A stretch of DNA of 64,000 nucleotides from Eledone cirrhosa (lineage: Eukaryota), in NCBI GenBank assembly GCA_964016885.1, contig OZ024741.1:364560001-364624000 (forward strand), given 5' to 3'. Below the pieces are notes generated by a model that worked only from the letters and a program-made list of their open reading frames with translations, searched no databases and had not been told where the DNA came from. Shown piece by piece: positions 33-61,770 of this stretch (position 1 is the stretch's first letter; each line of letters opens with the position of its first letter). The translations under genes were made by a program, and so were the position numbers.

Positions 33-455
33 ACTTTGATATCTCAGTCATTGATGCTATTTAACCAGAAAATTTTCACTAAGCCACTACCTACAACCCC
101 AGATATTCAGGACGTATCAGAGGGTCCTTGCTGTTCCCAGTAGGCATGCCTTCTGGGGTGTACCAAAAAAGGGGACTTGGCTAATGTCCTTTAACAAGCT
201 TTGGAAATTCTTCGAGACAGTACCTAGTGCTCCTATTATGATGGGGACGACCTTGATCTCATGAGAGTCCCAAATCCTTTTCATTTCCCACTGAAGATTC
301 TGGTACTGGTTAATTTTCTCCTTCTCCTTTTCCTGAACTCTTGTTTCAAAGGGGCAAGCTACATCTATAATCAAGTAAAATCTTTTATTCTTGTCAAAAA
401 CCACCAGCTCAGGCCTATTGTGTTCTAATTCTTTGTCCATTTGTTCATTTGTATC
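33..455 (-). mobile_element. 3' fragment of an RLE-type (R4/Dong-like) non-LTR retrotransposon, restriction-like endonuclease domain
   Basis: ORF 117-440(-) reads HNRPELVVFD..LIIDVACP..EKEKEKINQYQNL..KVVPIIIGALG..QKACLLGTARTL, the RPD..D..P..K..KY RLE signature (PD changed to PE). Flanked by ATT/TTATAA repeats. Confidence 0.85.
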
Positions 456-1140
456 ATGATCATTATTATTATAATTATTATTATTATAATTATTATAATT
501 ATTATAATTATTATTATAAAATTACGGGGTCGATAAAATAAAGTACCAGTAATGTACTGAGTAATTGCTGGCCTTGTGCCTAAAGTAGAAACAATTATTA
601 TAAAATTAATGTTAAAAATAATTAATTTCAAATAAATATTGTGTTTGTGTGCATGCATTGCTGTGGAAACTAAAAATTCAATGGTGGTTTGCTGTGAATG
701 ATTGTTGTGAATTGGATGCTTTGTATATATATCATGATCATGATGATCATCATCATCGTTTAACGTCTATCTTCCACGCTAGCATGGGTTTAGACGAGAA
801 TTGTCCCACGTGAGGCAAGATTGGTTGTCTTGCTTGTATAGGATTGTCTGACGGGTTTTCTATGGCTCGATGCCCTTCCTAACACCAACTACGTTTACAG
901 TGTGGACTGGGAGGTTTTTACCGTGTTACCTACACGGCCACATTACAGCGTGGACTGTGTTTTTTTGTTGTGACACCTACACGACCTCATTTATTTAGGA
1001 CTGGATATTGTGGCACCGACATAACTTTACAGAGAAAGGGGTGGTGTAGATGGCAGTGGGGGTAGGGGTAGTGGGATGGGGGTGTATTTTTGGTTAGGAT
1101 GTGCCCACTGACTGTAGGTTTCACTTTGTACTTAGGCAAG

Positions 1141-3443: not shown

Positions 3444-3489
3444 TTCCCACTAGCGATGATCTTGGTTGTACTCCTGAATCCTCTCCTGA
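3444..3489 (+). CDS. BRSK: SAD/BRSK kinase internal exon (V)[14 protein letters not shown](E)
   Basis: tttcag acceptor, gtgagt donor; matches the BRSK 'VPT...TPESSPE' motif; phase fits the next exon. Upstream kinase-domain exons were not found in the window. Confidence 0.9.
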
Positions 3490-4753: not shown

Positions 4754-4877
4754 AATGACAAAACGGTCATGGTTTGGTGCTCTTATGGGAACAGAGCGAG
4801 AAGAACATCACTTTGTTATTGTACGTGACAAACCTTTGAGTCAAGTGAAAGCAGATTTAGTTCATGCTTTCCTTTCA
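4754..4877 (+). CDS. BRSK: SAD/BRSK exon (E)MTKRSWFGALMGTEREEHHFVIVRDKPLSQVKADLVHAFLS (KA1 start)
   Basis: tttcag/gtaagt boundaries; matches BRSK 'KKSWFG...KDKPLSSIKADIVHAFLS'. Confidence 0.95.
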
Positions 4878-5806: not shown

Positions 5807-5981
5807 ACTCCAGATATGAGTCATAGTGTTGTCTCAACTACAACGTTCCGAGCAGAATACAGGAGATCCAGCAGTGCTTCCATGTTTTCCCGTAATGTTC
5901 GATTTCAAGTGGATATCTCTCCCTCACCTGGTTATGAGAATAATGGAGAATCCTACTGCTTGACATTTACCCTGATTTCAG
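5807..5981 (+). CDS. BRSK: SAD/BRSK exon TPDMSHSVVSTTTFRAEYRRSSSASMFSRNVRFQVDISPSPGYENNGESYCLTFTLIS(G) (KA1)
   Basis: tgctag/gtaatt boundaries; matches BRSK 'SHSV.S.TSFRAEY...VKFQVDI...Y.VTFTL.SG'. Confidence 0.95.
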
Positions 5982-9414: not shown

Positions 9415-9695
9415 CATAGGTGTCACGACAGAAAACATTCGGTCCACACTGCAAAGTGGTCATGTAGGTATCATGACAAAATGCACCCAGCTTACACTGT
9501 AAGATGGTCGTGTAGCTATCACAACAAAAAGCAACCAGCCCACACTGTAAAGTGGTCATGTTGGTATCATGACAAAAAGCACCCAGCCTACACTGTAAGG
9601 TGGTCATGTAGATGTCACGACTAAAATCATCCAGCCCACACTAAGGTGGTCATGTAGGTATCATGACAAAAAGCACCCAGCACACACTGTAAATC
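9415..9695 (+). repeat. About five tandem ~53-bp units inside a SINE
   Basis: Repeating catgtaggtatcatgacaaaaagcacccagcccacactgtaaagtggt, followed by the SINE tail aacccatgctagcgtgg...(GAT)n. Confidence 0.8.
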
Positions 9696-9829: not shown

Positions 9830-9999
9830 GGCCAACTCGGCGTTTTAAGAGAATCTGTGAATACATTCAAGCTCTGTTACTTACTCCTCGTGGAGAAAGA
9901 GAAATAACTCGAAGAATCAGCACTGACAGTTCTTCATCATATTCATCGGAAATGTCACCTACCCATAATGCCAGTCCTCGAGATACTACGGAAGATGAG
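9830..9999 (+). CDS. BRSK: SAD/BRSK exon (G)PTRRFKRICEYIQALLLTPRGEREITRRISTDSSSSYSSEMSPTHNASPRDTTEDE
   Basis: ttttag acceptor; 'GP.RRFKR..E.IQA.LL' ends KA1; donor gag|gtaacg in phase 0. Confidence 0.92.
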
Positions 10000-10211
10000 G
10001 TAACGGTTGGTTGAATGGGTTTTTTCAGTTATATTTTACACTTATTACTGACAGAAACTAAATGTTTTCAATCTTTTATTTCCATTAAAAGGTTTTGGGG
10101 TGCTATGTTGTGTGTGTATGTATATATGTGTGTGTGTATGTATGTGTGTGTATTTGTATGCATGTAAGCATGTGTGTGTGAGTGTGCACATCTATTTGCA
10201 TGTGTGTGAGA

Positions 10212-13137: not shown

Positions 13138-13869
13138 TATATATTTGAGAGCTTTTTTTTTCCAAATATAATAACTATTCTATTGACATCATTATTTTCT
13201 ATTTAACTAATTTGACAGTAACATATTGTTTGAAAACATAACTTTATGTCGATGCCTTATAGATCCATTAACCCTTTTTTGTAGCCTATTTTTAATGATG
13301 CAGTTCAATTAATTTTGAAAATGACAAAAAATTTGGGGGGAATTTAATAAAATAACTTTTTCATTAATAAACTGATGATTTGAAGATTACTTAACAAACA
13401 TTTCTTGAATAAAGTTTTGTTGGAAGGTTTTAATATAAGTATGTACATTTTGAAATGGAAAGGTTTAGCATCAAAAGAGTTAATCTAACCATATGTGATG
13501 TATATTTTTATAAATCAATGAGCAACTGGGTTTCTTATAAAAGCCAAAACATTTATAAGAGAAAACCACACTAAGAAAAGAAAACTATATTTTTTATCAG
13601 CCAACACATATGGACATTAATATACATTTTTTTAAATAAAATTATATAAGTACATTTTGAAATGGGTAGTTTTGTATCATTTTGGACATTGCAAATTTAA
13701 AAGTCCTATAAAAAAAAATTTGATGTAAATATAACTTTAATAATAGTTTAAAAGCTTCATGTTACTCTCCTTTTATATACAAAATATAAACCCCAGAGAA
13801 AGTCATGAAAAGGAGGCATTCTCCATGTGAGCTATTTCTGTTGATGGAATAATTTGTTTTCTAATTCAG

Positions 13870-13929
13870 ATAATGAAAGTAGCTCGAAGCACTATCATGA
13901 CTACTCCATCAACCCTACGACCAGGAGAG
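13870..13929 (+). CDS. BRSK: BRSK alternative exon E1, IMKVARSTIMTTPSTLRPGE (60 nt, phase 0-0)
   Basis: ttttctaattcag acceptor, gag|gtaagc donor; paralog of 23729-23788 with many synonymous differences. Confidence 0.8.
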
Positions 13930-14635
13930 GTAAGCCAACTAAGTACTGTGCCTCACAATTACATATAACTCTCAGAATAATACGAAGCTCAGCTTAGCTT
14001 ATTTTGTGACTTCACTGTAAGCAAGTATATGTAATTGCATAAGGAAAGCCTTCGGTATTATCCACATTGCATGTGAATATTGAAGCATGATCTCATCTGT
14101 GTATTGTGCTAATTTTGAGAGAGTGTCTTAAGTTTTAATCTTTTATTAAACTCTGTTTTCTAACATTAAATGAATAACTCATTCAGGTAATATATAACAA
14201 GGTTATTTAAGTAATCACCTAGAAAAACTAATGAGTTTCACTGTTTTATTTTTAAATATTAACTAAATTTTGAATATTCTATGTTGTAACTATTATAAAT
14301 TAGGTATACTAATTCACACTTTTCTTTCAGAACTCTCATATTTAGATAGTTTTATAACAAATTTGATGTGGGGTTCAGTTTTACATTCACTATATACACA
14401 TATATGTATATAATATATATATATATAATCACATATAAACCCACCAGTCAAGTATAAAACATTTTGAGAGTTGAAAGGACGTTTCCATTCAACTATGAAA
14501 ACAGTTTAGGCTTGGCCATTGGGTTTACATATATTAAATAATACAGTCTACTTTCATAAAAGTATCAAGAACTAATTTAAATAATGGACAAACTAGTAAT
14601 TTAACTAGTAACATCCTATCCATATATATATATAT

Positions 14636-14875
14636 ATATTTATTAAAATAACAGATTAAAGTTTAAGCAAAGAATCGCTGCATTCACCCTTAACGGGATC
14701 TTCTGAAACTCTTTCAGAAGATCCCGTTAAGGGTGAAAGCAGCGATTCTTTGCTTAAACTTTAATCTGTTATTTTAATAAATATTTGCTCTACGGTTCTT
14801 ATATATCTGATATATATTTATCCTTATCGAGCCCTCTTTGGATATTAGTCTTCAAATTTATTATTATTACTATAT
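14636..14875 (+). mobile_element. Penelope-type pLTR with inverted 5' duplication (73-bp arms, 3-nt loop) carrying the CAGAAGA hammerhead variant
   Basis: 14636-14708 and 14712-14784 are reverse complements with 1 mismatch; tail tccttatcgagccctct...ttattactatata shared with 7992-8040 and (inverted) 1295-1345. Confidence 0.7.
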
Positions 14876-14894
14876 ATATATATATATATATACA

Positions 14895-16300
14895 TCACAA
14901 TGGATGAACTGGATGACAGCGAGAAATTAATGGAAAACCTAGAGAACAACAAACATTCATCAATGCAAATAAAACTCCAACCATTACAACCATTCGATTT
15001 CTAAACTTAAGCAGATAGAAAATAACAGACATCATGCCCATTTAGACTAAAGTCACACATAAGTGACTATACTTATATGGAGAAAACCAATGTCACTTCG
15101 ATGCAAAAATGTCAGTGATCGAACCCCCTACTCAGTAGAGCATTTAGATTCTCCTCCACACATAAAAAGAAATCTACAAAATAAAATAAACACTAATCAA
15201 CTATAGATATTCTAACAAACCATAGAATAATAAAGTCACTGATACATTAGACATTTTTTACTGGCACTCTGTTGGTTACAGTGGTGAGTGTTCCATGTGA
15301 TTCAATCAATGGAACAGCTTGCTCATGAAATTAATATGCAAGTGGCTGAACATTCCATAGACATCACTCGCTCGCTCTGACCGATCAACAAAATCCTAGA
15401 CCTCATTCGCTTGCCAAGTAGGGTAGATCTCGTCAAATCGGACCAAGGAAACAATGTTTCCATTGGTCTTTTCATTGCTGATACTCTCTACCGGTCACAA
15501 CTCCTGGCAGAGAGAACAATGTGAAATAAAGTTCCTTGCTCAAGGGCACAACAAATCACCCAGAATTGAACTAGCAACCTCACGATTGCGAATCCAACTA
15601 TCTAACGACTAAGCCAAGCATCTTCACCATAGACATATATACCTTTAATGTAGTTCTTGAGGAGATTCAATGTGACACAGTATGTGACAAGGCTGGCCCT
15701 TCAAATTACAGGTATAACTCATTTTTCTAGCTGAGTGGACTGAAACAATGCAAAATATAGTGTCTTGCTCAAGGAATTGAACTCACAGCCTTATGATCAT
15801 GAGCCAAATACCCTAACCACTCAGCCACATGCCTTCACCTATTACAAATACACAAACCTTACAATAAAGTGTATTAAATGAAGCAAATGTATACTAGCCA
15901 TATAATGTATGAATACATTATTAAACACCCTGTAAAACAGAATGCAAAATGCATTACTCTAAACAATAAACTACTATTAATAATATTCTTCAGAAACATT
16001 AAAATGAAAAACCTTATCAATAACTCAAAATGGTGTAAACCTGTGAACAAACTCCTAATTCTCATTGACATTTACAAATTTGATTGCAAGCATCCAAGTT
16101 GTGGGCTTTATGACCTCAACTGCTATATTAGCCTTAAAAGTAAAACACTCCCCCTTGGGCTCACCATGGACTTACAACAAGGAACACAACATTACACAAC
16201 ACAAAAAAAAAACTTGATAGGAAAACACTATAATAAACAACACAACTATATTATACAGGATTCCACAAAATGCTAGGAAGCAGTAACCATAACACAGCAC
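14895..16300 (+). pseudogene. Decayed Penelope-like retroelement (RT thumb plus GIY-YIG endonuclease), interrupted by nested SINEs at ~15259-15838
   Basis: ~15075-15220 reads GENQCHFDAKMSVI..LLSRAFRFSST (RT thumb-like). ORF 15878-16276 contains IYKFDCKHPSCG..CYISLKSKTL..LTMDLQQG, like the PLE VYxxxC..C..YIG.T..L..RL..H motif. Frameshifts and stops present. Confidence 0.65.
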
Positions 16301-16605
16301 AATGTTAAGATTTATACACAGATCACAAACAAAAATAAATACCTGACTAATTTGAATTTGCTGATATCATGTCAAAACCAATCACATTCAATCAGTCTAC
16401 TATAAAAAGGCAACATTGCAAGCCAACTTGATTTCATTCAAAAGATGAAACTATGAAGATCTAGAAATGTTGATAATGGATTTGGGAACTTTACTGTTCC
16501 AAAGAAAGAACTCATAGGACAATTGAAAAAGAAATCTTGATATTAAAGGTAGAACACATTCATGTTTTCAATAGAACATATAAAATAAAACTTGTTTCTC
16601 CATAT

Positions 16606-16679
<74 letters not shown>

Positions 16680-17389
16680 TCATCATCATTTTACATCTGC
16701 TTTTCATGATGGTATGGGTTGGAGGAGTTGTCACAGTCTATATTAGTTTTTATTAAGATTTGCTGCTCACATGGACAGGTTAGGGACCACATCTTGCTTT
16801 TATTTTTTCATTGGGGTATGTTTTCTATAGCTAGATGCCCTTCCTAATTCCAATGAGAAAGAGATGGAAGAGAGAGTCACTCTGTACAAGAAGTTGAATT
16901 ATGAAATATTATAATAATGGGGAGAGCAGCATAATAGGTGATAAAAAAATGTAGTAAGTGAAAGTGATAGGCAGCTATAAACTGGTTGTTGGTAAAGAGA
17001 TTGGATAGAAAAATAATATGAATGACATGAGAGAATAAGACATGGTAATCAAAGGGTGAGTAATGGAAGCAAGAGAGAGAGTAATGTATGTCAATAATAA
17101 GTAATGGTGAGAATAATGTGCATGAAAGCCTGATGAATAACAATATTATATTGCTATTATAATTTATATTATAATGATGGGTGGTGGCAAGAAAGTGTTT
17201 GATATATATGAGTGCTAATGAAGGAAAGAATGGTGGGGAATGATGGCTTGCACTAATGAAGGATTAATGGCAGACGGCATGATAGGTGAGAAGTAGAGTT
17301 GAATATAAACAGGTCCAAATTGCCATCCCCACCACTATTTTAATGTCTATTTTATCATACATGGATGAGCAGGTCTACTTCAGAACTGT

Positions 17390-17960
17390 TTATCACATTT
17401 GTCTTCTTTGTGAGTTTCAACTACTTGAGATACATTTTCACCACCTCCGTCTCATGTCTTCCTAGATTTCTCTCTACCACAGATTCCATCATTTTAGATT
17501 GTTAAATGCTTCTTTATATAATTGACATCCTACTTGTGCATCATATGCTTGTACTGGTTTAGTAATCTCTCTCACACACTACATCTGATTTCTCTCATAT
17601 CCAGCTTTTCTCTCAGGTCATTTGAGCTTCATTAATTATGCACAGTAATATTATATTTCAAGCAGAACAGACATGCTTGATTTCTTTCTAGCCGTTGCAA
17701 ATTTTCTTCATTCAATGTCCAGGTCTTGTTATCATGCAGCATTGCACTTTCATAATCAAGCATCATAAAATCTGCTGTTCACGCTGAGAGAAATATCCTT
17801 TCCTACCATCTGAGTAAATAACTCCCTGAACCTTTCCATCTTATTATTACGGTAGCTACTATGTTTTCCATACACCCACCTCCACTGATAATTAGCTCAC
17901 CTAGGTAACAAAAACTATCAACTACTTCTAAGGAGCTTTCCTGACATTTCCTGAATTTGA
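17390..17960 (-). mobile_element. Decayed RTE-like LINE RT fragment
   Basis: Minus strand reads EVVDSFCYLGELISGG near 17880-17930; related copy at ~19830-20370. Confidence 0.55.
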
Positions 17961-18268
17961 TTGTCACTTACAGAAGGCAGAACAATAAAAATGGTCATTG
18001 CCAATATTTTAATAGAGATTGTAAAGGGACATAATTCATACCATACGATATTTGGTCTGGCGCTATATTTTATTGTTTCCACCAGGAAAATTCATTGAGA
18101 CATGTAAGGTTTTACTTAAAGACCTAGGTCACATCCCTACCCCTTGCAATCCCAGGTTTCCTCAATTCTTCCCTATTTTGAATTGTTATCTATTCATTTT
18201 TCACCCAAGCCCCATAATAACATGAACAAGATTTTCAAACTTCAATAACTGTATAGCCTCAAATGGGA

Positions 18269-18484
18269 TTAACGCTTTAGTATTTAAACCAGCCATATCC
18301 AGCCAGAATTCTCTCACCTCTTTCTGTTCAAACTGGCTGTAACTGGCCACTTATACTGATACTAAGGTATTGCCCTCAAAATAAATAATATCAAAATCTC
18401 ATAGATACGATATTATGTGAGATAAAGCCTTTACCATGAAAATACAATAGTAAACATAGAGTGATGTAAATGCTAAAGGGTTAA
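18269..18484. mobile_element. piggyBac-like MITE family P1 (inverted)
   Basis: TTAA flanks, same body as the other P1 copies. Confidence 0.75.
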
Positions 18485-20584
18485 ATCAGAAGTAGCAGTT
18501 TTCGGTGAACTGTTAATTTGTGATCTCTCTTATAGTTGCTTTATTGGTATTTCATTTGATATATACTCAATGTACATTATTCTTTCCCACTCTGGAATCG
18601 ATAGCTCATTATAGAATGTGAATAAATGTAATGATGTTATATTGATGCTCTGTTCCTGCTCCTTATTATTAATATTATTAACACCTTGCTTCTTAAGGAT
18701 ACCAACTACAGTGAAATACCAAATGTAGAATAACACATTGGCAGCCAGACCCATATTAGCATTGAGTGCTCAAACTGGTGAACTAAGCATTACAGACCAA
18801 TATATATATAATAATAGTAATAGTAATAATACTGAAATGAAGTTATCGGATTTGACCGAAATATCTTTGATCGTTTTCCCACTCACTCGATGTTTTAATT
18901 AAGCTAGTATCCTTAAGATACTAACCCAAATGAAAACAGAGTGCACACTAATATGTTAAATAATGAGGAGGACGATTTTGCGTGGGTGGATAATTAGATT
19001 CTCTCTTCCTGGACTAATTAATTAGTTTCCACTACTCCATCTGCTGGCGACATATACATTATCATCTTTTAACATCATTCTCTCTGCTAGCATTGGATGA
19101 GTCATTGCCACTGAACTCACAGGTGGGCTGAGGAGGAAGGAGGACTGCACTTAGCTTACATACATTCCACATTCTACAGAGTGCACTGGGTACGTTTTAT
19201 CATGTCACCATCATGAGGGAGGTTGTCATGCCTTTGACCATTTCTTTATAAAGTTTTCTATGGCTGGGTGCCTTTCCTATCACCAACCACTTTACAAAGT
19301 GAATTTATCCTTTAGACCACCAACACTAGAGAGGTTGTTGTGCCCTTGATATAACTGAAGAGTCCTCTGACCCTTTTTGGCATAGTTTCTACAATTGGAT
19401 GTCCTTCCTACAACCAGAAACCTTACAGGATGTACTGGGTGCATTTTTCATGGTACCAGTACTAGAGAGGCTGTCGGTGGTTGACTCAATGGAAAAGCCC
19501 TCTCTACCCTAATGGGGTGGTAGTAGTAAGGAAGAAGATAAGTATGTTGTCATGGATGTATGGCAGGGAGGAGAAATGAGAAAATATGTCATGGGTGTAT
19601 GGTGACCTCTGATACTATTGGGTGTGCGTACTGTGATAATGAGAACAGCTACTAGAGAGTCATGATTGGTGTGTAAGGAGTTAAGATGAGTGTAGTGGAA
19701 CTTGGATAGAGTGAGGATGGTGATTGTGAACCTGGATAGGTGGTCCAGTAATTGTGAGAATAGCTACTAAGGATCAGTAGTAAAGGGTGCATGTATGTGT
19801 TTGGTTACATCTTTTATGCTGGTAGGCATGATGCCAATCCTCACAGTTTTTTGTCATCTCTGCTGTAAGGTTCTGCTTCTTAGGGTCAGTCTTCACTACT
19901 TCATATCATGTCTTCCATGAATCCCATACTTAGAGAGTTCTCTGCACTTCTTTATATAGTTTTCATCTTCCATATACATTATATGTCTATACCAATGCAG
20001 TATTCTCTCTTGTGCACAACATTCAATTCCTCTTATATCAAGTTTTTATCTCAATTTGCATATGCTACATCGTTCATGCACAGTAACATTACACATCTAT
20101 TGGAGAATACTTCTATTTTTTCTAGGATGTGCAGTTCTTCTGCAGTCAAGTCCTATGTCTTATTGTCATGTAGCATTGCACTTTGCACACAGGCATCATA
20201 CAGCCTACCATTCACTCTGAGAGAGAAGCACTTTGTTGTCAGCTCCCTAAACAACTTCCAAACTATTTTTACTCTAGTTATCACACTTTAAGAGCATTCT
20301 CCACCACTGCTGATTGGGTCACCAAGATAACAAAAGCTGTCAGCAACTTCTAAAGAGCTTCACTTGGAACTGAAGATATCTATTTCATGTTTATATATAT
20401 ATGGAGAGAGTGAAAAAGAGATAGGTAAAATCCTAACCATGGTGCCAAGAAGTTTCAGCTTGTGTATTCACTTTCATCAGCACAGGCTGAACAAGGTACC
20501 TGGTATGGTGCCTTTGTATCATAGTTGCTGGCCTTGATAATTATACATATATATTTACATACACACACATATATATATATACAT

Positions 20585-21080
20585 GCATGCATATATTTCT
20601 GTTTCCAAACAGTGGGTAACCATGTTTGAACTAATGCATATATAAATATACACATATCTAATATGTATGGATATGAACATGCCAGAAAATAGGAATATCC
20701 CTGTAAATTTAAAAAATGATAAACACCTTTGATTGACTTTTTAACCTCATTGGGCCTTCATCAGGTGTGTATGTCATCCAAACAACCACAAGGAAACATA
20801 TATTTGGTGGGCTTATATATCCATTTGCTCTTAGCAGATTTTTGAAATAGACATACTAATTTGCATATAATTAGCACTCATGTTGGTAATATATTAAGAT
20901 ATATATTGAGAAATGTGCTAGCAGCAAAAGTGTGCAATAAAGTTATAGCTGTATGTATACAAAGGTGGTAACCGAGACTGTACCAATGTGTATATAAGAT
21001 TAGATATGTGTATACACATAATAATATGTAGGTATGTAAACATGCCAGAAAATATGAATTTCCCTGTAAATTGAAAGAAA
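20585..21080. mobile_element. AT-rich repeat family (two direct copies of the acagtgggtaac...catgccagaaaatatgaatttccctgtaaatt arm)
   Basis: Arm recurs at ~29630-29740 and, inverted, at ~30820-30945; collapsed hairpin version at ~27635-27830. Confidence 0.5.
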
Positions 21081-21789
21081 AAAATATATGTGTGTGTTTC
21101 AGTGTATGTACGGGTGTACATGAACAGACACACAGACAAACACATCTTCATATAGTCTTAGTACATCGCTCACTCTGATTGATTGACAAGATCCCAGACC
21201 TCATTCGCTTGCCGAGTGGGGTGGACCTTGACAAATCGGACCAAGGAAACAATGTTTCCAGTGGTCTTTTCATTGCTGATACTATCTACTGGTTGCAACT
21301 TCTGGCAGAAGGAGCAACGTGAAATAAAATGTCTTGCTCAAAGGACACAACACATCATCCAGTCCGAGAATTGAACTTGCAACCTCACGAATGTGAATCT
21401 AACTCTCTTACCACCTAGCCACATGCCTTCCTATGCCAATACATACTTATATATTATCTCTTTTTACTAGTATAGTGAATTTTATTTTTTTTTTTTTTTT
21501 CCACATAGATTTACATGTGTTTGTGTATGTGTGTGTTTTTTACATGCAATCACTCACACTGTATTTAAAAAATCTTAAAATAATGTTTTTTTCTCATTCT
21601 AAAATATTATGTTATTCCTTTTTGCTAATTTTCATTTTACTTTCATAAGATTATACAATTTCGTATTTGACTTCATTTTGTCAAACTAAGAGATAGTAAA
21701 TTTCAATTTAGACATAAAATGACATTAAAAAGTCAGTATTAGTAATAGATAACAAGATGAGAATATGATTTGAGATATTTCACATTACC

Positions 21790-22115
21790 AAGCATATGCA
21801 AATACAAGCGGGCAAAATGGGATTACTCCGAAGGGTCTTAGCATATAATTACTCGGAGATCAGAGATTTGCTCAGAGTAGAGCTGCTCCTTCTGGGAATT
21901 GAGAGATCATAGCTCCAATGCTACAGGCATGTGGTCAGAATGTCTAAGAGAAGAATCACTGGACAGATTTTATAGGCAAAAACCAACCAGCAGGACACCC
22001 AGTTATAGACCCTAAGCAAGATGTTTGGATAACACCAATGAACTTGGGGATCCAGTCAGATCAATTGGAAACAGTCACTTTTGACAGGACATGTTGGAAG
22101 GATTGCTTGAGAACT
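21790..22115 (+). mobile_element. RTE-like LINE 3' fragment
   Basis: Homologous to 60375-60610(+) and 60945-61270(-). Confidence 0.6.
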
Positions 22116-22171
22116 CCCCCCCCCCCCCCCCCGGAACAAAAAGGAGGTGGAGATGTTGTAGCAGCAGCAGC

Positions 22172-22222
<51 letters not shown>

Positions 22223-23303
22223 TTAATGTGATTTCATTTTGCATTCATTTTGACAAAGGTTCATAGCTGGAATGCCTTTGATCATCAGCATTGAGAAGTT
22301 TTGTGCAGCCAATTATTACCGCAATAAATTAACTTTATTCCATTACCAATCTCGATGAGTATATTTCTAGATTTTTAGATTGTTTTTACAAAATCAAAAT
22401 TGATTGAAATTTACTGAAACATCACTGAGTTATATTTTCATATAATGGGAATGAATAACTTGTTCAATCTATACTTAAACTTGTAAATGCATAGTGATAT
22501 TTAGTATCAACCTTTTTTCATTGCTGACTAGACATTTATATATGCACACACACACACACATACACACACATATACATGTATATAACGTTAGTTCCACAAC
22601 AAATTAACAAACCATACTTGAAGATGTGGATTCTTAACTTGAGATAGGTTGCGCTCAGCACAACCTCACTCGAGTTGAGAATCTGTTGCGTGAAATGTGT
22701 GTCCTCGAGTATGGTTTGCTAATTTGTGATGGAACTAATTTTATACCAAACTCATCTTATGGACTGAGTGCTTTACATACTACGGATATAACCTCCTGGT
22801 GTTTTATATATATATACATACACACACACAAACCTTTGAAAGAATAGTGATAGTGTAAAGCTTCATATTTTCATTGCTGGCTATATATGTATATATATAT
22901 ATACACGTATGCATGTATATATGTATGTATATGTATGTATGTATATATGTATATGTATGTATGTATATATGTATGTATATATATATATATGTATATGAAT
23001 ACTCCAATATAAAATCTGCGGCTCAGTAGTTACCGATGATGTTGATCTTTTCTTCTTTTCGGGTTATAGCTACTGTCGCTCAGAGAGTGGGATTGCCTCA
23101 GTGCACAGTCTTTCCTCACTTTAAAAATATTCGTCACGCACAGGCATTGCAGGATAGAATTAATTAATGATTATTAATAATGATATATCATGCAATGGCC
23201 ATACTCGATAACGAGGGGGCAGCCATCATATATATATGCATATGTATATATATATATATATATATATACATATGAATATATATGTGTATATGTATGTATA
23301 TAT

Positions 23304-23337
<34 letters not shown>

Positions 23338-23378
23338 ATGTATGTATATATATATATATGTATGTATATACATATATG

Positions 23379-23447
<69 letters not shown>

Positions 23448-23728
23448 GCAATAATATACACACTCATACATATATATAAATTCTGTCTGCTTAAATTTCT
23501 CATTTTTGTGATTCTTAATCTGCTACACATATCTGCTCATCTCATTCATTTTCTGCCTTACCATATTTTATTCTGAGAGAGATGTGTTTTAGAAGCTTCT
23601 TTTGCACGATAGTTATGGCCCAGTCACCTCTCCTGGTTCTAGCCTGAAGGACAGTGCCTTAGGAATCCCCTGAGATTGCACCTGTTTTTTTTAACTATGT
23701 TGATGGCATTGTTTGTTTTCTAATCCAG

Positions 23729-23788
23729 ATGATGAAGGAAGCTAGAAGTTCAATCATGAGTGGCTCATCGACTTTAAAGCCAGGAGAG
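23729..23788 (+). CDS. BRSK: BRSK alternative exon E2, MMKEARSSIMSGSSTLKPGE (60 nt, phase 0-0)
   Basis: ttttctaatccag acceptor, gag|gtaaga donor; 13/20 aa identical to E1. Confidence 0.8.
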
Positions 23789-24532
23789 GTAAGACAACTA
23801 TGCATTGACTCCAGTGCACTGAGGCAATTCAATCAGTGCATTGCAGCCTCTGCTGTAGTCACCTCACATATTGTCTTGGAGGCTATTTTTGTTTATAATT
23901 GACTTTATCTTTCACTTTACTCCCAAATTGTTTTATTCCAAGCATGAATTTTGGACAAAGAGTGGAAGTTCAATTATAAACAACTGTTTTTCTCCCAAGA
24001 CCCCTGATAGAATGTAGAATTTCTTAGATTACTTTCCCTTGAAACAGGTACTGATGACATTCCTTGAATGATTATGAAAATCGTTAAGATGGTATAAAGG
24101 TGTGTGTAGTTGGTACAAAATGTGTTTTGCATTATTTGAAAAAAAACTACTGAGTAGAAGACAATAAAAAAGATATTTGGTGATCTTCACAATTGGTTTA
24201 TTTATCTACATCACCTAAATGTTTAGAAAAACACCCACACATTAATTACTGTTTGGTATGGGAAATGAAACAATATACAGATTTAAAATATGTAAAGTTT
24301 TTTTTTTTTTTGAAATGTGAAAATAAATGGCCAAATAAATAAAACTATATTTTAAAAGTACTTTAAAAAATTGTCCTCATCGGTTTCAGATATTAAGATT
24401 TTAAAAGATTATCTACTAATTTGTATCTATTATTAAATTTAAAATATTTAGTGTTCAACTGCTATCTTCTTTCCTAATTCTTATTTTAAACCTCTTTCTA
24501 TCCACAAAACCAACTAACCAACCAACAAGCAT

Positions 24533-25562: not shown

Positions 25563-25800
25563 GTAAGCTTTTCTTTCATGTGCTGCTGTTCTATCTCCCT
25601 CCATATGTACAACTGAACGGACTATTATACGTTGATGTGTCTTATGTAAGCCTGTGCAAAGTTGGTAATAGGCTCAGGCCTGATGCGGAATGTAGGCCCC
25701 GATTTTAAATGCTCATCAAGGATTTTAATAATTAGTTTTAAATACATATGATTTATACCTGAGTTACAAGTATGTATACACACATACATGTAGTGTACAT

Positions 25801-29751: not shown

Positions 29752-30816
29752 ACTAGCATTAAAGCCCGGCGTTGCTCGGTGTCAGTAAGTTACCAAAGTT
29801 AGGTTGCACCACCCATTTTATGGCAGCACTTTTTTGTCTGCCAGGCACTGGGTAAATGAATTGCAGACCTCGATTGCCGAAGCAGGAGCTGCGCCAGCAG
29901 TGACAATTGTAGTTTCGCCTATGGATATTATCTCTATGCAAAGAAGTGTTGAAATTTATTGTTTCACAGTACTTGCGCAAGACGCGCGTAGACGATGCCA
30001 GCCGAACAACAGAGCTGCGATGGAGTTGTTCTGCATGGTTGTCTAATGTGTGTTTTCTAAATTTAAGACAGTAGGGAGGGGTGTGATATGGGGGAGAGTT
30101 AGCTGCTGTTTCTAGCAGGTTTAGTGACCTCATAGAGGATATGTGTTTTCTAAATTTAAGACAGTAGGGAGTGGTGTGATATAGGGGAGAGTTAGCTGCT
30201 GTTTCTAGCAGGTTTAGTGACCTCATAGAGGATATGTTTTCTAAATTTTAGACAGTAGGGAGTGGTATGATATGGAGGAGAGTTAGCTGCTGTTCTAGCA
30301 GGTTTAGTGACCTCAAAGAGTATATTATTGTGTATAGTAAATAAACTGATACTTCTTTCTTCCACATTCGTTGAGAGGTTTTAAAAAAGATTTATCGCTA
30401 TTTTTTTTGTTGTTGAATAAATTTATCTGTTGCTTTTGAATAATTGTTGTTTCGTATGAAATGTCATTGAAGTAAATAAATGTATGACCGTTCCACACTC
30501 AAAAACAAACGTTCTCTCTCTCTTCGGCGTTCCTAAAGGAAGTTTGTAAGCATGTATGTAGTTTTATCGAATTTTAAGGGGAGTAGACAGAGGTAATCAG
30601 ATTCTATTAGAGGGGTAAAGCGTCATGTATTTAGTTTTATCGATTATTTCCATAATTGTGGGTGAGTTTGAATGAAATAAATAGTCGTTGACCTAAGTTA
30701 GACCATTTACAACATTCTTACAGACGTTGAGTCGAATCGGTTTGAAATTGTGCAAATGTATAAACATGGAACATGCACACACACAACAACAACAATCTGC
30801 CTTTTATAGATAATGA
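29752..30816 (+). mobile_element. Helentron/DINE-1-like non-autonomous element with central tandem repeats
   Basis: Starts tt|actagc...cccggcgttgctcgg; three ~92-bp units at 30046-30320; (CA)/(CAA) microsatellite before the ttttatagat end; T-rich insertion site. Confidence 0.65.
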
Positions 30817-35655: not shown

Positions 35656-35757
35656 GCTTTTGACAAAGAAAGAAGAACTCCTAATCCACAAAGAAAAGAC
35701 ATGTTCCGAAAACGGTCTGTGACTACAGAACATACTGCCACCACAGAAAAGGTCTGA
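35656..35757 (+). CDS. BRSK: BRSK terminal coding exon AFDKERRTPNPQRKDMFRKRSVTTEHTATTEKV*
   Basis: Long U tract + attag acceptor; phase 0 open frame to TGA; C-terminal EKV resembles the DKV PDZ ligand of nematode SAD-1. Confidence 0.8.
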   Translation, partial: AFDKERRTPNPQRKDMFRKRSVTTEHTATTEKV

Positions 35758-60868: not shown

Positions 60869-61770
60869 CTTCTTCTTCTTCTTCTTCTTCTTCTTCTTCT
60901 TCTTCTTCTTCTTCTTCTTCTCCTTCTTCTTCCTGGGTGGATCATGGTGGCAGGGTCCTCAAACACGCCTTCCAGTGGGTCCTGTCAGAAACAACCCTCT
61001 CCAATTGAATCCAGGTGGATCCCCAAGTGAGACTGTCTGAGCTCATGGATCTGATCCAACCATCTTGTTCTTGGTCTACCCCTGGGTCTCCTGCTGCTTT
61101 GATTTTCCAGTAAAATATGTCCAGTGAATTTTTCCCGAGACATTCTAAACACATGCCCATAGTATTGGAACTGTGATTTCTCAATTCAGAAAAGTTTACC
61201 TGGAGTGACTCTCTGATCTCCAAGTACTCTATTGAGTAACATTACTCTGAAGACCCTTCAGAGGAACCCCATTTCAGCTTCTTGTATTTGCTATCATATT
61301 ATTTCGGTCATTACCCAAGATTCATGACCATATGTAAGGGCTGGCATGAATACCAAATTGAGATAGTGAATTTGGCTTCTATGCCTACCTCCCTTCTTCT
61401 GATGACTGAATGCTGAAGCTGGCACATTACTGCTCCAGCTCCTGCAATTCTTGCACTTAATTCAGCCTCCTTACTTCCATCATTTGTGAACATGACCTTG
61501 AGATACTAGAATTTCTTCACATGCTTCAGTGGAACTCTACTCATATACTGAGTGCACTGTGCAGGATTTCTTGAGAGGACGAGTGTCTCAGTCTTCACAG
61601 CACTGATTTTCATTCCAGCTGTGCAGCACTCAGCATCAAACCTATCACCTGCACATTGAAGATCACCTTCTGATGAGTAAAGTAATATCATGTCGTCTAC
61701 AAATTCCACATATCAATCCTTTTCATGAAGATTATGAATAGGAGAGGTGACATTACACAACCTTGGCGTA
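60840..61770 (-). mobile_element. RTE-clade LINE 3' portion (RT domains) with (GAA)n tail
   Basis: FVDDMILL..DLQ..DRF..C..AGMKIS..KTETLV; KKF*YL..FTNDG..ELSARI; tail (TTC)n at 60840-60930. Confidence 0.8.

What the first reader, a model, noticed from the sequence alone, without database searches (positions are those of the whole stretch)
13870..23788. Tandemly duplicated 60-nt coding exon pair in the SAD/BRSK tail: candidate mutually exclusive exons
Seen: two exons 9.9 kb apart, each exactly 60 nt and phase 0-0 (IMKVARSTIMTTPSTLRPGE vs MMKEARSSIMSGSSTLKPGE). 13/20 aa are identical, and 6 of those 13 codons differ synonymously (aaa/aag, cga/aga, agc/agt, tca/tcg, acc/act, cta/tta). Flanks are conserved too (tgttgatgg...tttgttttctaatYcag; gtaagMcaacta). 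Inference: both copies are under coding constraint and may be mutually exclusive or additive cassettes. E1 carries a Thr-Pro (TTPS) proline-directed phospho-site that E2 lacks. I know of no such duplicated exon in vertebrate, fly or worm SAD kinases.
Basis: partly seen in the sequence, partly recalled or inferred. Interest (0 to 1): 0.8.

Follow-up and report, generated by a model that had tools for sequence, protein, structure and literature searches.

The report
Twin optional exons in cephalopod SAD kinase
Octopuses, argonaut and cuttlefish carry two ancient copies of a 20-amino-acid exon in the tail of the neuronal SAD/BRSK kinase, and these can be spliced in together (so they are not either-or), which likely lets cells make tails with none, one or both inserts.

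Summary
E1 (13870-13929) and E2 (23729-23788) are 60-nt phase-0 exons, 42/60 nt and 13/20 aa alike, with dN 0.21 against dS 1.7. They are the only two copies found in this genome. Both peptides are 20/20 identical between Octopus and cuttlefish. None of 195 non-cephalopod BRSK entries has them: these join the upstream exon straight to the last exon. Mutual exclusivity is refuted. A spliced contig from a related organism runs E0>E1>E2, and 18 of 34 cephalopod protein sequences carry both exons in frame (7 have E1 only, 6 neither, 3 E2 only). The pair are additive, frame-preserving cassettes, like PAC1 hip/hop or tau 0N/1N/2N. They lie between the KA1 domain and a conserved C-terminal -EKV end. 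Their effect on the protein is untested; most likely they lengthen the linker and add a Ser/Thr-rich motif. The isoforms already sit in automated annotations, but my six searches found no paper on them. Verdict: a real, apparently coleoid-specific new member of a known kind. Interest 0.4.

The parts
3444..3489 (+). BRSK coding exon (phase 1-2)
   Evidence: tblastn; borders read from sequence
4754..4877 (+). BRSK coding exon, start of the KA1 region (phase 2-0)
   Evidence: 41/41 aa octopus vs cuttlefish
5807..5981 (+). BRSK coding exon, KA1 domain (phase 0-1)
9830..9999 (+). E0: exon ending the KA1 domain and starting the tail (phase 1-0)
   Evidence: 56/56 aa to Octopus proteins; spliced to E1 in contigs of X5 and X17
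10000..10005 (+). alternative 5' splice-site extension of E0, adding Val-Thr
   Evidence: present or absent in octopod and decapod-type proteins; GT follows in the window
13839..13869 (+). E1 acceptor flank, with a branch-site-like TTGAT (A at -26) shared with E2
   Evidence: branch function inferred from consensus only
13870..13929 (+). E1: 60-nt phase 0-0 cassette exon
14068..14089 (+). TGCATG and GCATG downstream of E1 (RBFOX-type motif, recalled; weak lead)
   Evidence: background 0.24 GCATG per 250 nt
23698..23728 (+). E2 acceptor flank, with the same TTGAT at -26
23729..23788 (+). E2: 60-nt phase 0-0 cassette exon, duplicate of E1
   Evidence: (first 27 nt joined to E1 in X17)
23942..23946 (+). 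GCATG at +154 of E2, matching +156 of E1 (weak lead)
35656..35757 (+). T: last coding exon, 33 aa ending -TEKV, then stop
   Evidence: 33/33 aa octopus vs cuttlefish

Best explanation
E1 and E2 are two copies of one 60-nt exon in the BRSK/SAD kinase tail that can be spliced in together, and they likely act as separately optional cassettes adding 0, 20 or 40 residues, which would tune the linker between the KA1 domain and the predicted C-terminal PDZ-binding end. Shown: both are spliced and frame-preserving; E1>E2 joining occurs; forms with neither, E1 only and both exist in unnamed Logan contig-derived proteins; both peptides are invariant between octopods and cuttlefish; non-cephalopod entries have only the 'neither' form. 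Inferred: (1) the exon was gained in the E0-T intron on the cephalopod line and duplicated before octopods and decapods split; (2) only the splice signals (-31 to +13) and coding sequence stayed alike, through selection; (3) an E2-only form exists; (4) inclusion is set by tissue- or neuron-specific RNA-binding proteins, as for worm sad-1 exon 15; (5) each copy adds 6 Ser/Thr and a shared basic-hydrophobic motif, so copy number would change spacing, phosphorylation or partner binding rather than catalysis.
For:: the X17 contig (115 nt, depth 16.3) holds the E0 end, E1 and the first 27 nt of E2; those 27 nt differ from the window at 2 sites, both synonymous. Its 28 + 60 + 27 letters are exactly what a 31-mer graph gives for an arm competing with an E0>E2 junction. 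The X5 contig has 95 nt of E0 plus E1 and stops exactly at 13929, as expected at a fork. The X1 contig starts 9 letters before T, the length of the suffix E1 and E2 share; both 18, E1 only 7, neither 6, E2 only 3 of 34 sequences. Logan-only subset: both 2, E1 only 3, neither 6 of 11. E1 and E2 are each 20/20 identical in O. sinensis vs cuttlefish, while E0 is 54/56. dN/dS about 0.13 between copies. Best score among 195 non-cephalopod entries is 35, against 63 for E1 vs E2; the alignment shows a clean insertion. KA1 ends at residue 596 of 711 in P0007, about 40 residues before E1.
Against: No junction evidence from the window's own organism: X24 laid nothing on E1 and only one low-depth contig on T. 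2 of 4 runs gave nothing in each. The X17 contig has fewer than the 31 letters per side that the tool asks for to count a bridge; the fork and merge readings are inferences from contig lengths, assuming k=31. E2-only is seen directly only in 3 gene models, all ending in intron read-through, and in 0 of 11 Logan proteins. Most 'both' sequences (16 of 18) are automated gene models. No inclusion levels or tissues were obtained. No nautilus or vampire squid entry was among the named hits. No functional data exist for the peptides.
Confidence: 0.82

Rival explanations
1. Mutually exclusive exon pair, with double inclusion as rare leakage.
For: Equal length, same phase, homology and shared flanks fit the usual prediction rules. 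E1-only and E2-only sequences exist. One downstream duplex site was matched by only 1 of 15 shuffles.
Against: In-frame E1>E2 junction at depth 16; both exons in 18 of 34 sequences, including 2 of 11 Logan proteins. A 9.8-kb intron rules out steric blocking, 60 nt rules out a frame filter, and both donors are ordinary GTAAG. No exact complement of the shared 9-mer lies between E0 and T; the upstream duplex was matched by 6 of 15 shuffles. Forms with neither exon also exist.
Confidence: 0.05
2. Ordered or coupled cassettes like tau exons 2 and 3: E2 is mostly used only with E1 (0, 1, 2 steps), and E2-only is rare or limited to some octopods.
For: 0 of 11 Logan proteins and 0 of 5 cuttlefish models are E2-only. 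All 3 E2-only models end in intron read-through.
Against: The geometry of the X17 contig (28/27 letters) points to an E0>E2 junction frequent enough to split the graph. Two Octopus species have E2-only models.
Confidence: 0.3
3. E1 and E2 mainly serve as alternative last exons: read-through of their donors gives short tails lacking the -EKV end, like the short worm SAD-1 form.
For: O. bimaculoides and O. vulgaris models end this way. One Logan protein (5 contigs) ends in another tail after E2 (P0005).
Against: The read-through peptide differs between those species and this window in sequence and stop position. No contig ran past the E1 donor in 4 runs. No listed O. bimaculoides model uses T at all, which suggests an annotation gap. 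10 of 11 Logan proteins end in T.
Confidence: 0.1
4. Neutral spacer: the exons are spliced but their peptide has no specific role.
For: No Pfam, atlas or representative match for the peptide. The whole gene evolves slowly in coleoids (T 33/33, KA1 exon 41/41), so invariance over 20 aa is not exceptional.
Against: dN is far below dS between the copies (p 8e-4). Each copy has kept its own distinct sequence in octopods and cuttlefish. Both observed differences in E2 of X17 are synonymous.
Confidence: 0.12

Closest known systems
PAC1 receptor (ADCYAP1R1) hip/hop cassettes
   Same: Two adjacent equal-length in-frame cassettes (84 nt) giving null, hip, hop and hip-hop forms, regulated in the nervous system (PMC3659299, passages).
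   Different: They sit in a GPCR loop with measured signalling effects. The passages I saw do not say hip and hop are duplicates; E1 and E2 clearly are.
Tau (MAPT) exons 2 and 3, 0N/1N/2N
   Same: Additive inserts in a neuronal protein's tail region (PMC11095451, passages). That the two are homologous 29-aa inserts is recalled.
   Different: Tau exon 3 needs exon 2; here an E2-only form likely exists.
C. elegans sad-1 exon 15
   Same: Same gene family; a cassette exon changes the C-terminal tail, is neuron-type specific and alters NAB-1/Neurabin binding (PMC6641836, passages).
   Different: A single exon that changes the C-terminal sequence. E1 and E2 are duplicates that keep the frame and the -EKV end. 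No homology was tested: no worm protein was among the named entries.
Vertebrate BRSK1/BRSK2 post-KA1 inserts
   Same: Entries P0128, P0130 and P0131 show one, the other, or both of two 16-aa inserts after KA1; P0109 vs P0113 show one optional 16-aa insert.
   Different: Unrelated in sequence to E1/E2 and to each other, closer to KA1, and seen in different species. Exon borders are inferred from protein only.
Tandem exon duplication-derived substitutions (mutually exclusive homologous exons)
   Same: Ancient tandem duplicate, same phase and length, conservative changes (PMC9741552, passages).
   Different: Those are substitutions, mostly in folded domains; here the copies are co-included and lie outside any Pfam domain.

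Membership tests
Mutually exclusive exons (Hatje 2017 criteria) | No junction joining the two exons, unless it shifts the frame | tested here: not met
   In-frame E1>E2 junction in X17; 18 of 34 proteins with both; criterion read
Mutually exclusive exons (Hatje 2017 criteria) | Junctions from each exon that bridge over the other | tested here: inconclusive
   E1>T in 3 Logan proteins; E0>E2 only in 3 models and by contig geometry
Mutually exclusive exons (Hatje 2017 criteria) | An enforcing mechanism: steric block, U2/U12 mismatch, frameshift or docking site | tested here: not met
   9.8-kb intron, GTAAG donors, 60 nt; no exact docking complement; duplex scan matched by 6 of 15 and 1 of 15 shuffles
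Tandemly duplicated, differentially included cassette exons | Homology, same phase and adjacent position | tested here: met
Tandemly duplicated, differentially included cassette exons | Both skipped and included forms exist in transcripts | tested here: met
   Logan proteins: neither 6, E1 only 3, both 2 of 11; spliced contigs. Shown in relatives, not in the window's organism.
Tandemly duplicated, differentially included cassette exons | Independent or tissue-regulated inclusion levels | not testable with these tools
   Only contigs were served; no raw reads or tissue labels
BRSK/SAD kinase | Kinase + UBA_BRSK + KA1_BRSK domains | tested here: met
   Pfam on P0007 and P0025; KA1 exons in the window; UBA_BRSK exons 10-12.5 kb upstream on the same strand, one locus in G000. 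Kinase-domain exons of G000 were not fetched.
SAD kinase C-terminal PDZ-binding motif | Terminal DKV-like ligand that binds Neurabin | tested here: inconclusive
   93 of 195 non-cephalopod entries end DKV and 26 end DKL; coleoids end EKV. The role of worm DKV is recalled; the term was absent from the 8 papers listed. Binding not tested.

The most novel reading that the evidence does not exclude
Coleoid cephalopods gained a new exon in the tail of their single SAD kinase, duplicated it, and have kept both copies unchanged since before octopods and cuttlefish split as a four-state, neuron-type-specific dial (none, E1, E2, both) on a phospho- or docking-motif next to the PDZ ligand. This would be a third independent origin of optional tail inserts in SAD kinases, after worm exon 15 and the vertebrate 16-aa inserts, and a concrete splicing-level neural novelty of coleoids.
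Probability: 0.3. Interest if true: 0.62.

Novelty: new member of a known kind. Interest (0 to 1): 0.4.

Why it matters
SAD kinases set neuronal polarity and presynaptic assembly, and in worms the tail isoform is chosen neuron by neuron. A duplicated insert found only in coleoids and invariant between octopus and cuttlefish gives a small, editable target for asking whether splicing novelties contributed to cephalopod nervous systems. It also shows that equal-length, same-phase homologous exons should not be called mutually exclusive from sequence alone. The splicing type itself is known, and the isoforms are already in automated annotation, which limits the surprise.

Tried and rejected
Hairpin over the branch site: a 9-bp stem pairs the shared flank motif with E1 (z -3.0 in an 86-nt window chosen after seeing it, -1.6 in 116 nt). 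About 6% of synonymous recodings do as well and 23% reach 0.75 pairing. In E2 the pairing is 0.76-0.80 in four contexts but 0.09 in a fifth. Not supported. Docking-site model: no exact complement, duplex scans near shuffle level. Source of the exon: no third copy in G000 by DNA or protein; no usable atlas hit; the search of 1.84 billion representatives gave 1 hit, an unrelated repeat protein matching the T region. Three non-cephalopod tails beat their own 30-shuffle maximum (P0102 35 vs 29, P0092 29 vs 26, P0083 29 vs 28); these are Ser-rich stretches and I read them as compositional. Some of the 195 entries are fragments without a tail. The alternative tail of P0005 was not found in the window. 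No RNA holder was listed on record; X24 and X10 gave nothing on E1, X10 and X20 nothing on T, which is not evidence. Rfam: 0 matches. Earlier findings: none. Intron flanks of relatives could not be compared, apart from one contig (71/76 alike upstream of E1).
Full report
Observation. Both exons are as described: 60 nt, AG/GT bounded, phase 0-0, 42/60 nt and 13/20 aa identical, with six synonymous codon pairs. With flanks they match at 82/109; the next best place in the window scores 52 against a background of 29 +/- 4.7. A DNA search of G000 found only these two places. Similarity extends about 31 nt upstream and 13 nt downstream and then falls away. Between the copies dS is 1.68 and dN 0.21 (Fisher p 8e-4), so the duplication is old and the coding sequence constrained.

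Gene. The exons belong to a BRSK/SAD kinase gene of an octopod-type genome: E0 translates 56/56 identical to Octopus proteins. Window exons are 3444-3489, 4754-4877, 5807-5981, E0 9830-9999, E1, E2 and the last coding exon T 35656-35757. UBA_BRSK exons lie 10-12.5 kb upstream on the same strand, at one locus. In P0007 the KA1 domain ends at residue 596 of 711, so E1 and E2 lie about 40 residues behind it and 33 residues before the C-terminus.

Splicing. Among 34 cephalopod BRSK sequences (15 of 21 members of the main cluster were listed), 18 carry both exons, 7 E1 only, 6 neither and 3 E2 only. These are distinct sequences, not abundances, and 23 are automated gene models (O. sinensis, O. bimaculoides, O. 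vulgaris, Argonauta, pharaoh cuttlefish). The 11 unnamed Logan proteins, which share the cuttlefish-type residues, split into both 2, E1 only 3, neither 6, E2 only 0.

Contigs of public runs. Laying four runs on E1 gave three contigs in two runs and none in the other two. In X17 a 115-nt contig holds the end of E0, all of E1 and the first 27 nt of E2; the two differences from the window in those 27 nt are synonymous. It falls short of the tool's 31-letter bridging bar, but 25 of 27 letters match E2. Its lengths (28 of E0, 60, 27 of E2) equal those predicted for a 31-mer graph arm competing with an E0>E2 junction; merging with unspliced intron would give 28 on the E2 side. I infer that E1+E2 and E2-only both exist there, assuming k=31 (recalled for Logan). 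In X5 a contig has 95 nt of E0 plus E1 and ends exactly at the E1 donor, as at a fork. On T, X1 starts 9 letters before the exon, the suffix E1 and E2 share; X24, the listed small run of the organism that holds the window's DNA, gave one contig of depth 4.9 starting at 35658; two runs gave none. So co-inclusion is shown in relatives, not in the window's own organism, and no levels or tissues are known.

Mutual exclusivity. Hatje et al. 2017 (PMC5740500; passages and section 16) reject a candidate when an in-frame read joins the two exons, and note that neighbouring differentially included exons are common. This pair fails that test. No enforcing mechanism is visible: the intron is 9.8 kb, both donors are GTAAG, 60 nt keeps the frame, and no exact docking complement of the shared 9-mer exists between E0 and T. 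Duplex scans were matched by 6 of 15 (upstream) and 1 of 15 (downstream) shuffles; the latter is borderline and not followed up.

Evolution. E1 and E2 are each 20/20 identical between O. sinensis and cuttlefish; neighbours are 41/41, 57/59, 54/56 and 33/33. The gene is slow overall, so this shows constraint equal to constitutive exons, not more. Among 195 non-cephalopod entries (bivalves, gastropods, a chiton, annelids, nemerteans, Lingula, arthropods, amphioxus, vertebrates; a few are fragments) the best ungapped score to either peptide is 35, against 63 between the copies. In the alignment (16 of these sequences) the other lophotrochozoans run from the E0-like segment straight into the T-like segment, so 'neither' is the ancestral form. 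No nautilus or vampire squid entry was among the named hits, so the gain is placed only between other molluscs and the octopod-decapod ancestor. No source for the exon was found.

Mechanism. The shared flank holds a branch-site-like TTGAT with its A at -26 in both copies, which is enough to explain its conservation. GCATG occurs at +140 and +156 of E1 and +154 of E2, against 0.24 expected per 250 nt, but also three times behind E0; that it is an RBFOX-type enhancer is recalled and untested. A stem over the branch site did not survive controls. Each exon adds 6 Ser/Thr and 3 basic residues; only E1 has Thr-Pro. The tail ends -EKV, and 93 of 195 other entries end -DKV; that this is the Neurabin-binding PDZ ligand in worms is recalled, as I did not read Hung 2007 or Kim 2010. 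The autoinhibitory and lipid-binding elements of SAD-A lie in AIS-KA1 (PMC4686854, passages), upstream of the inserts. I therefore favour a linker or docking role over a catalytic one. All of this paragraph's functional steps are inference.

Comparison. The closest splicing patterns are PAC1 null/hip/hop/hip-hop (PMC3659299, passages) and tau 0N/1N/2N (PMC11095451, passages). In the same family, worm sad-1 exon 15 is a neuron-specific tail cassette (PMC6641836, passages), and vertebrate entries show optional 16-aa inserts after KA1 that are unrelated in sequence. PMC9741552 (passages) covers duplicated exons used as substitutions and does not mention BRSK in its main text; its supplements were not read. 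PMC10695385 and PMC2564922 (passages) added nothing on the tail.

Novelty. Searches for SAD kinase splicing, cephalopod + tandem exon duplication (0 papers), octopus + BRSK (1 unrelated), coleoid + novel exon (listing only), cephalopod + SAD kinase and BRSK2 + squid (1 unrelated) found no description. Subscription papers and supplementary tables were not covered. The isoforms are in automated public annotation. Verdict: real, constrained, apparently coleoid-specific, additive rather than exclusive; a new member of a known kind; interest 0.4.

Noticed in passing
window 10000-10005: Alternative donor 6 nt behind E0 adds Val-Thr; both forms occur in octopod and decapod-type proteins, with and without the cassettes.
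   Followed up: partly
P0005 (Logan, 5 contigs); after window 23788: A different 17-aa tail follows E2 in this decapod-type protein; no matching exon was found in the window.
   Followed up: partly
window 13930 onward and 23789 onward: O. bimaculoides and O. vulgaris models end by reading through the E1 or E2 donor; none of their listed models uses exon T, possibly an annotation gap.
   Followed up: partly
P0128, P0130, P0131, P0109, P0113: Vertebrate BRSK2 entries carry one, the other or both of two unrelated 16-aa inserts after KA1, and BRSK1 entries one optional 16-aa insert: a possible convergent design.
   Followed up: no
upstream of window 3444 (proteins P0025, P0048, P0044): Another optional insert of about 16 aa before the KA1 region is shared by coleoids, bivalves and gastropods; octopod models also have optional inserts after the kinase domain.
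   Followed up: no
window 13807-13882: An intronic contig of run X17 matches the 63 nt upstream of E1 plus the exon start at 71/76, hinting at conserved intronic control sequence beyond the part shared with E2.
   Followed up: no
window 25631-25670: Best joint duplex partner for both downstream flanks (-21 kcal/mol); matched by 1 of 15 shuffles.
   Followed up: no
window 120-521 and 60945-61712, minus strand: Open stretches that look like fragments of retroelement reverse-transcriptase ends (judged by eye).
   Followed up: no
window 9444-9692 and 30049-30325: Minisatellites of 48-nt and 93-nt period in BRSK introns.
   Followed up: no
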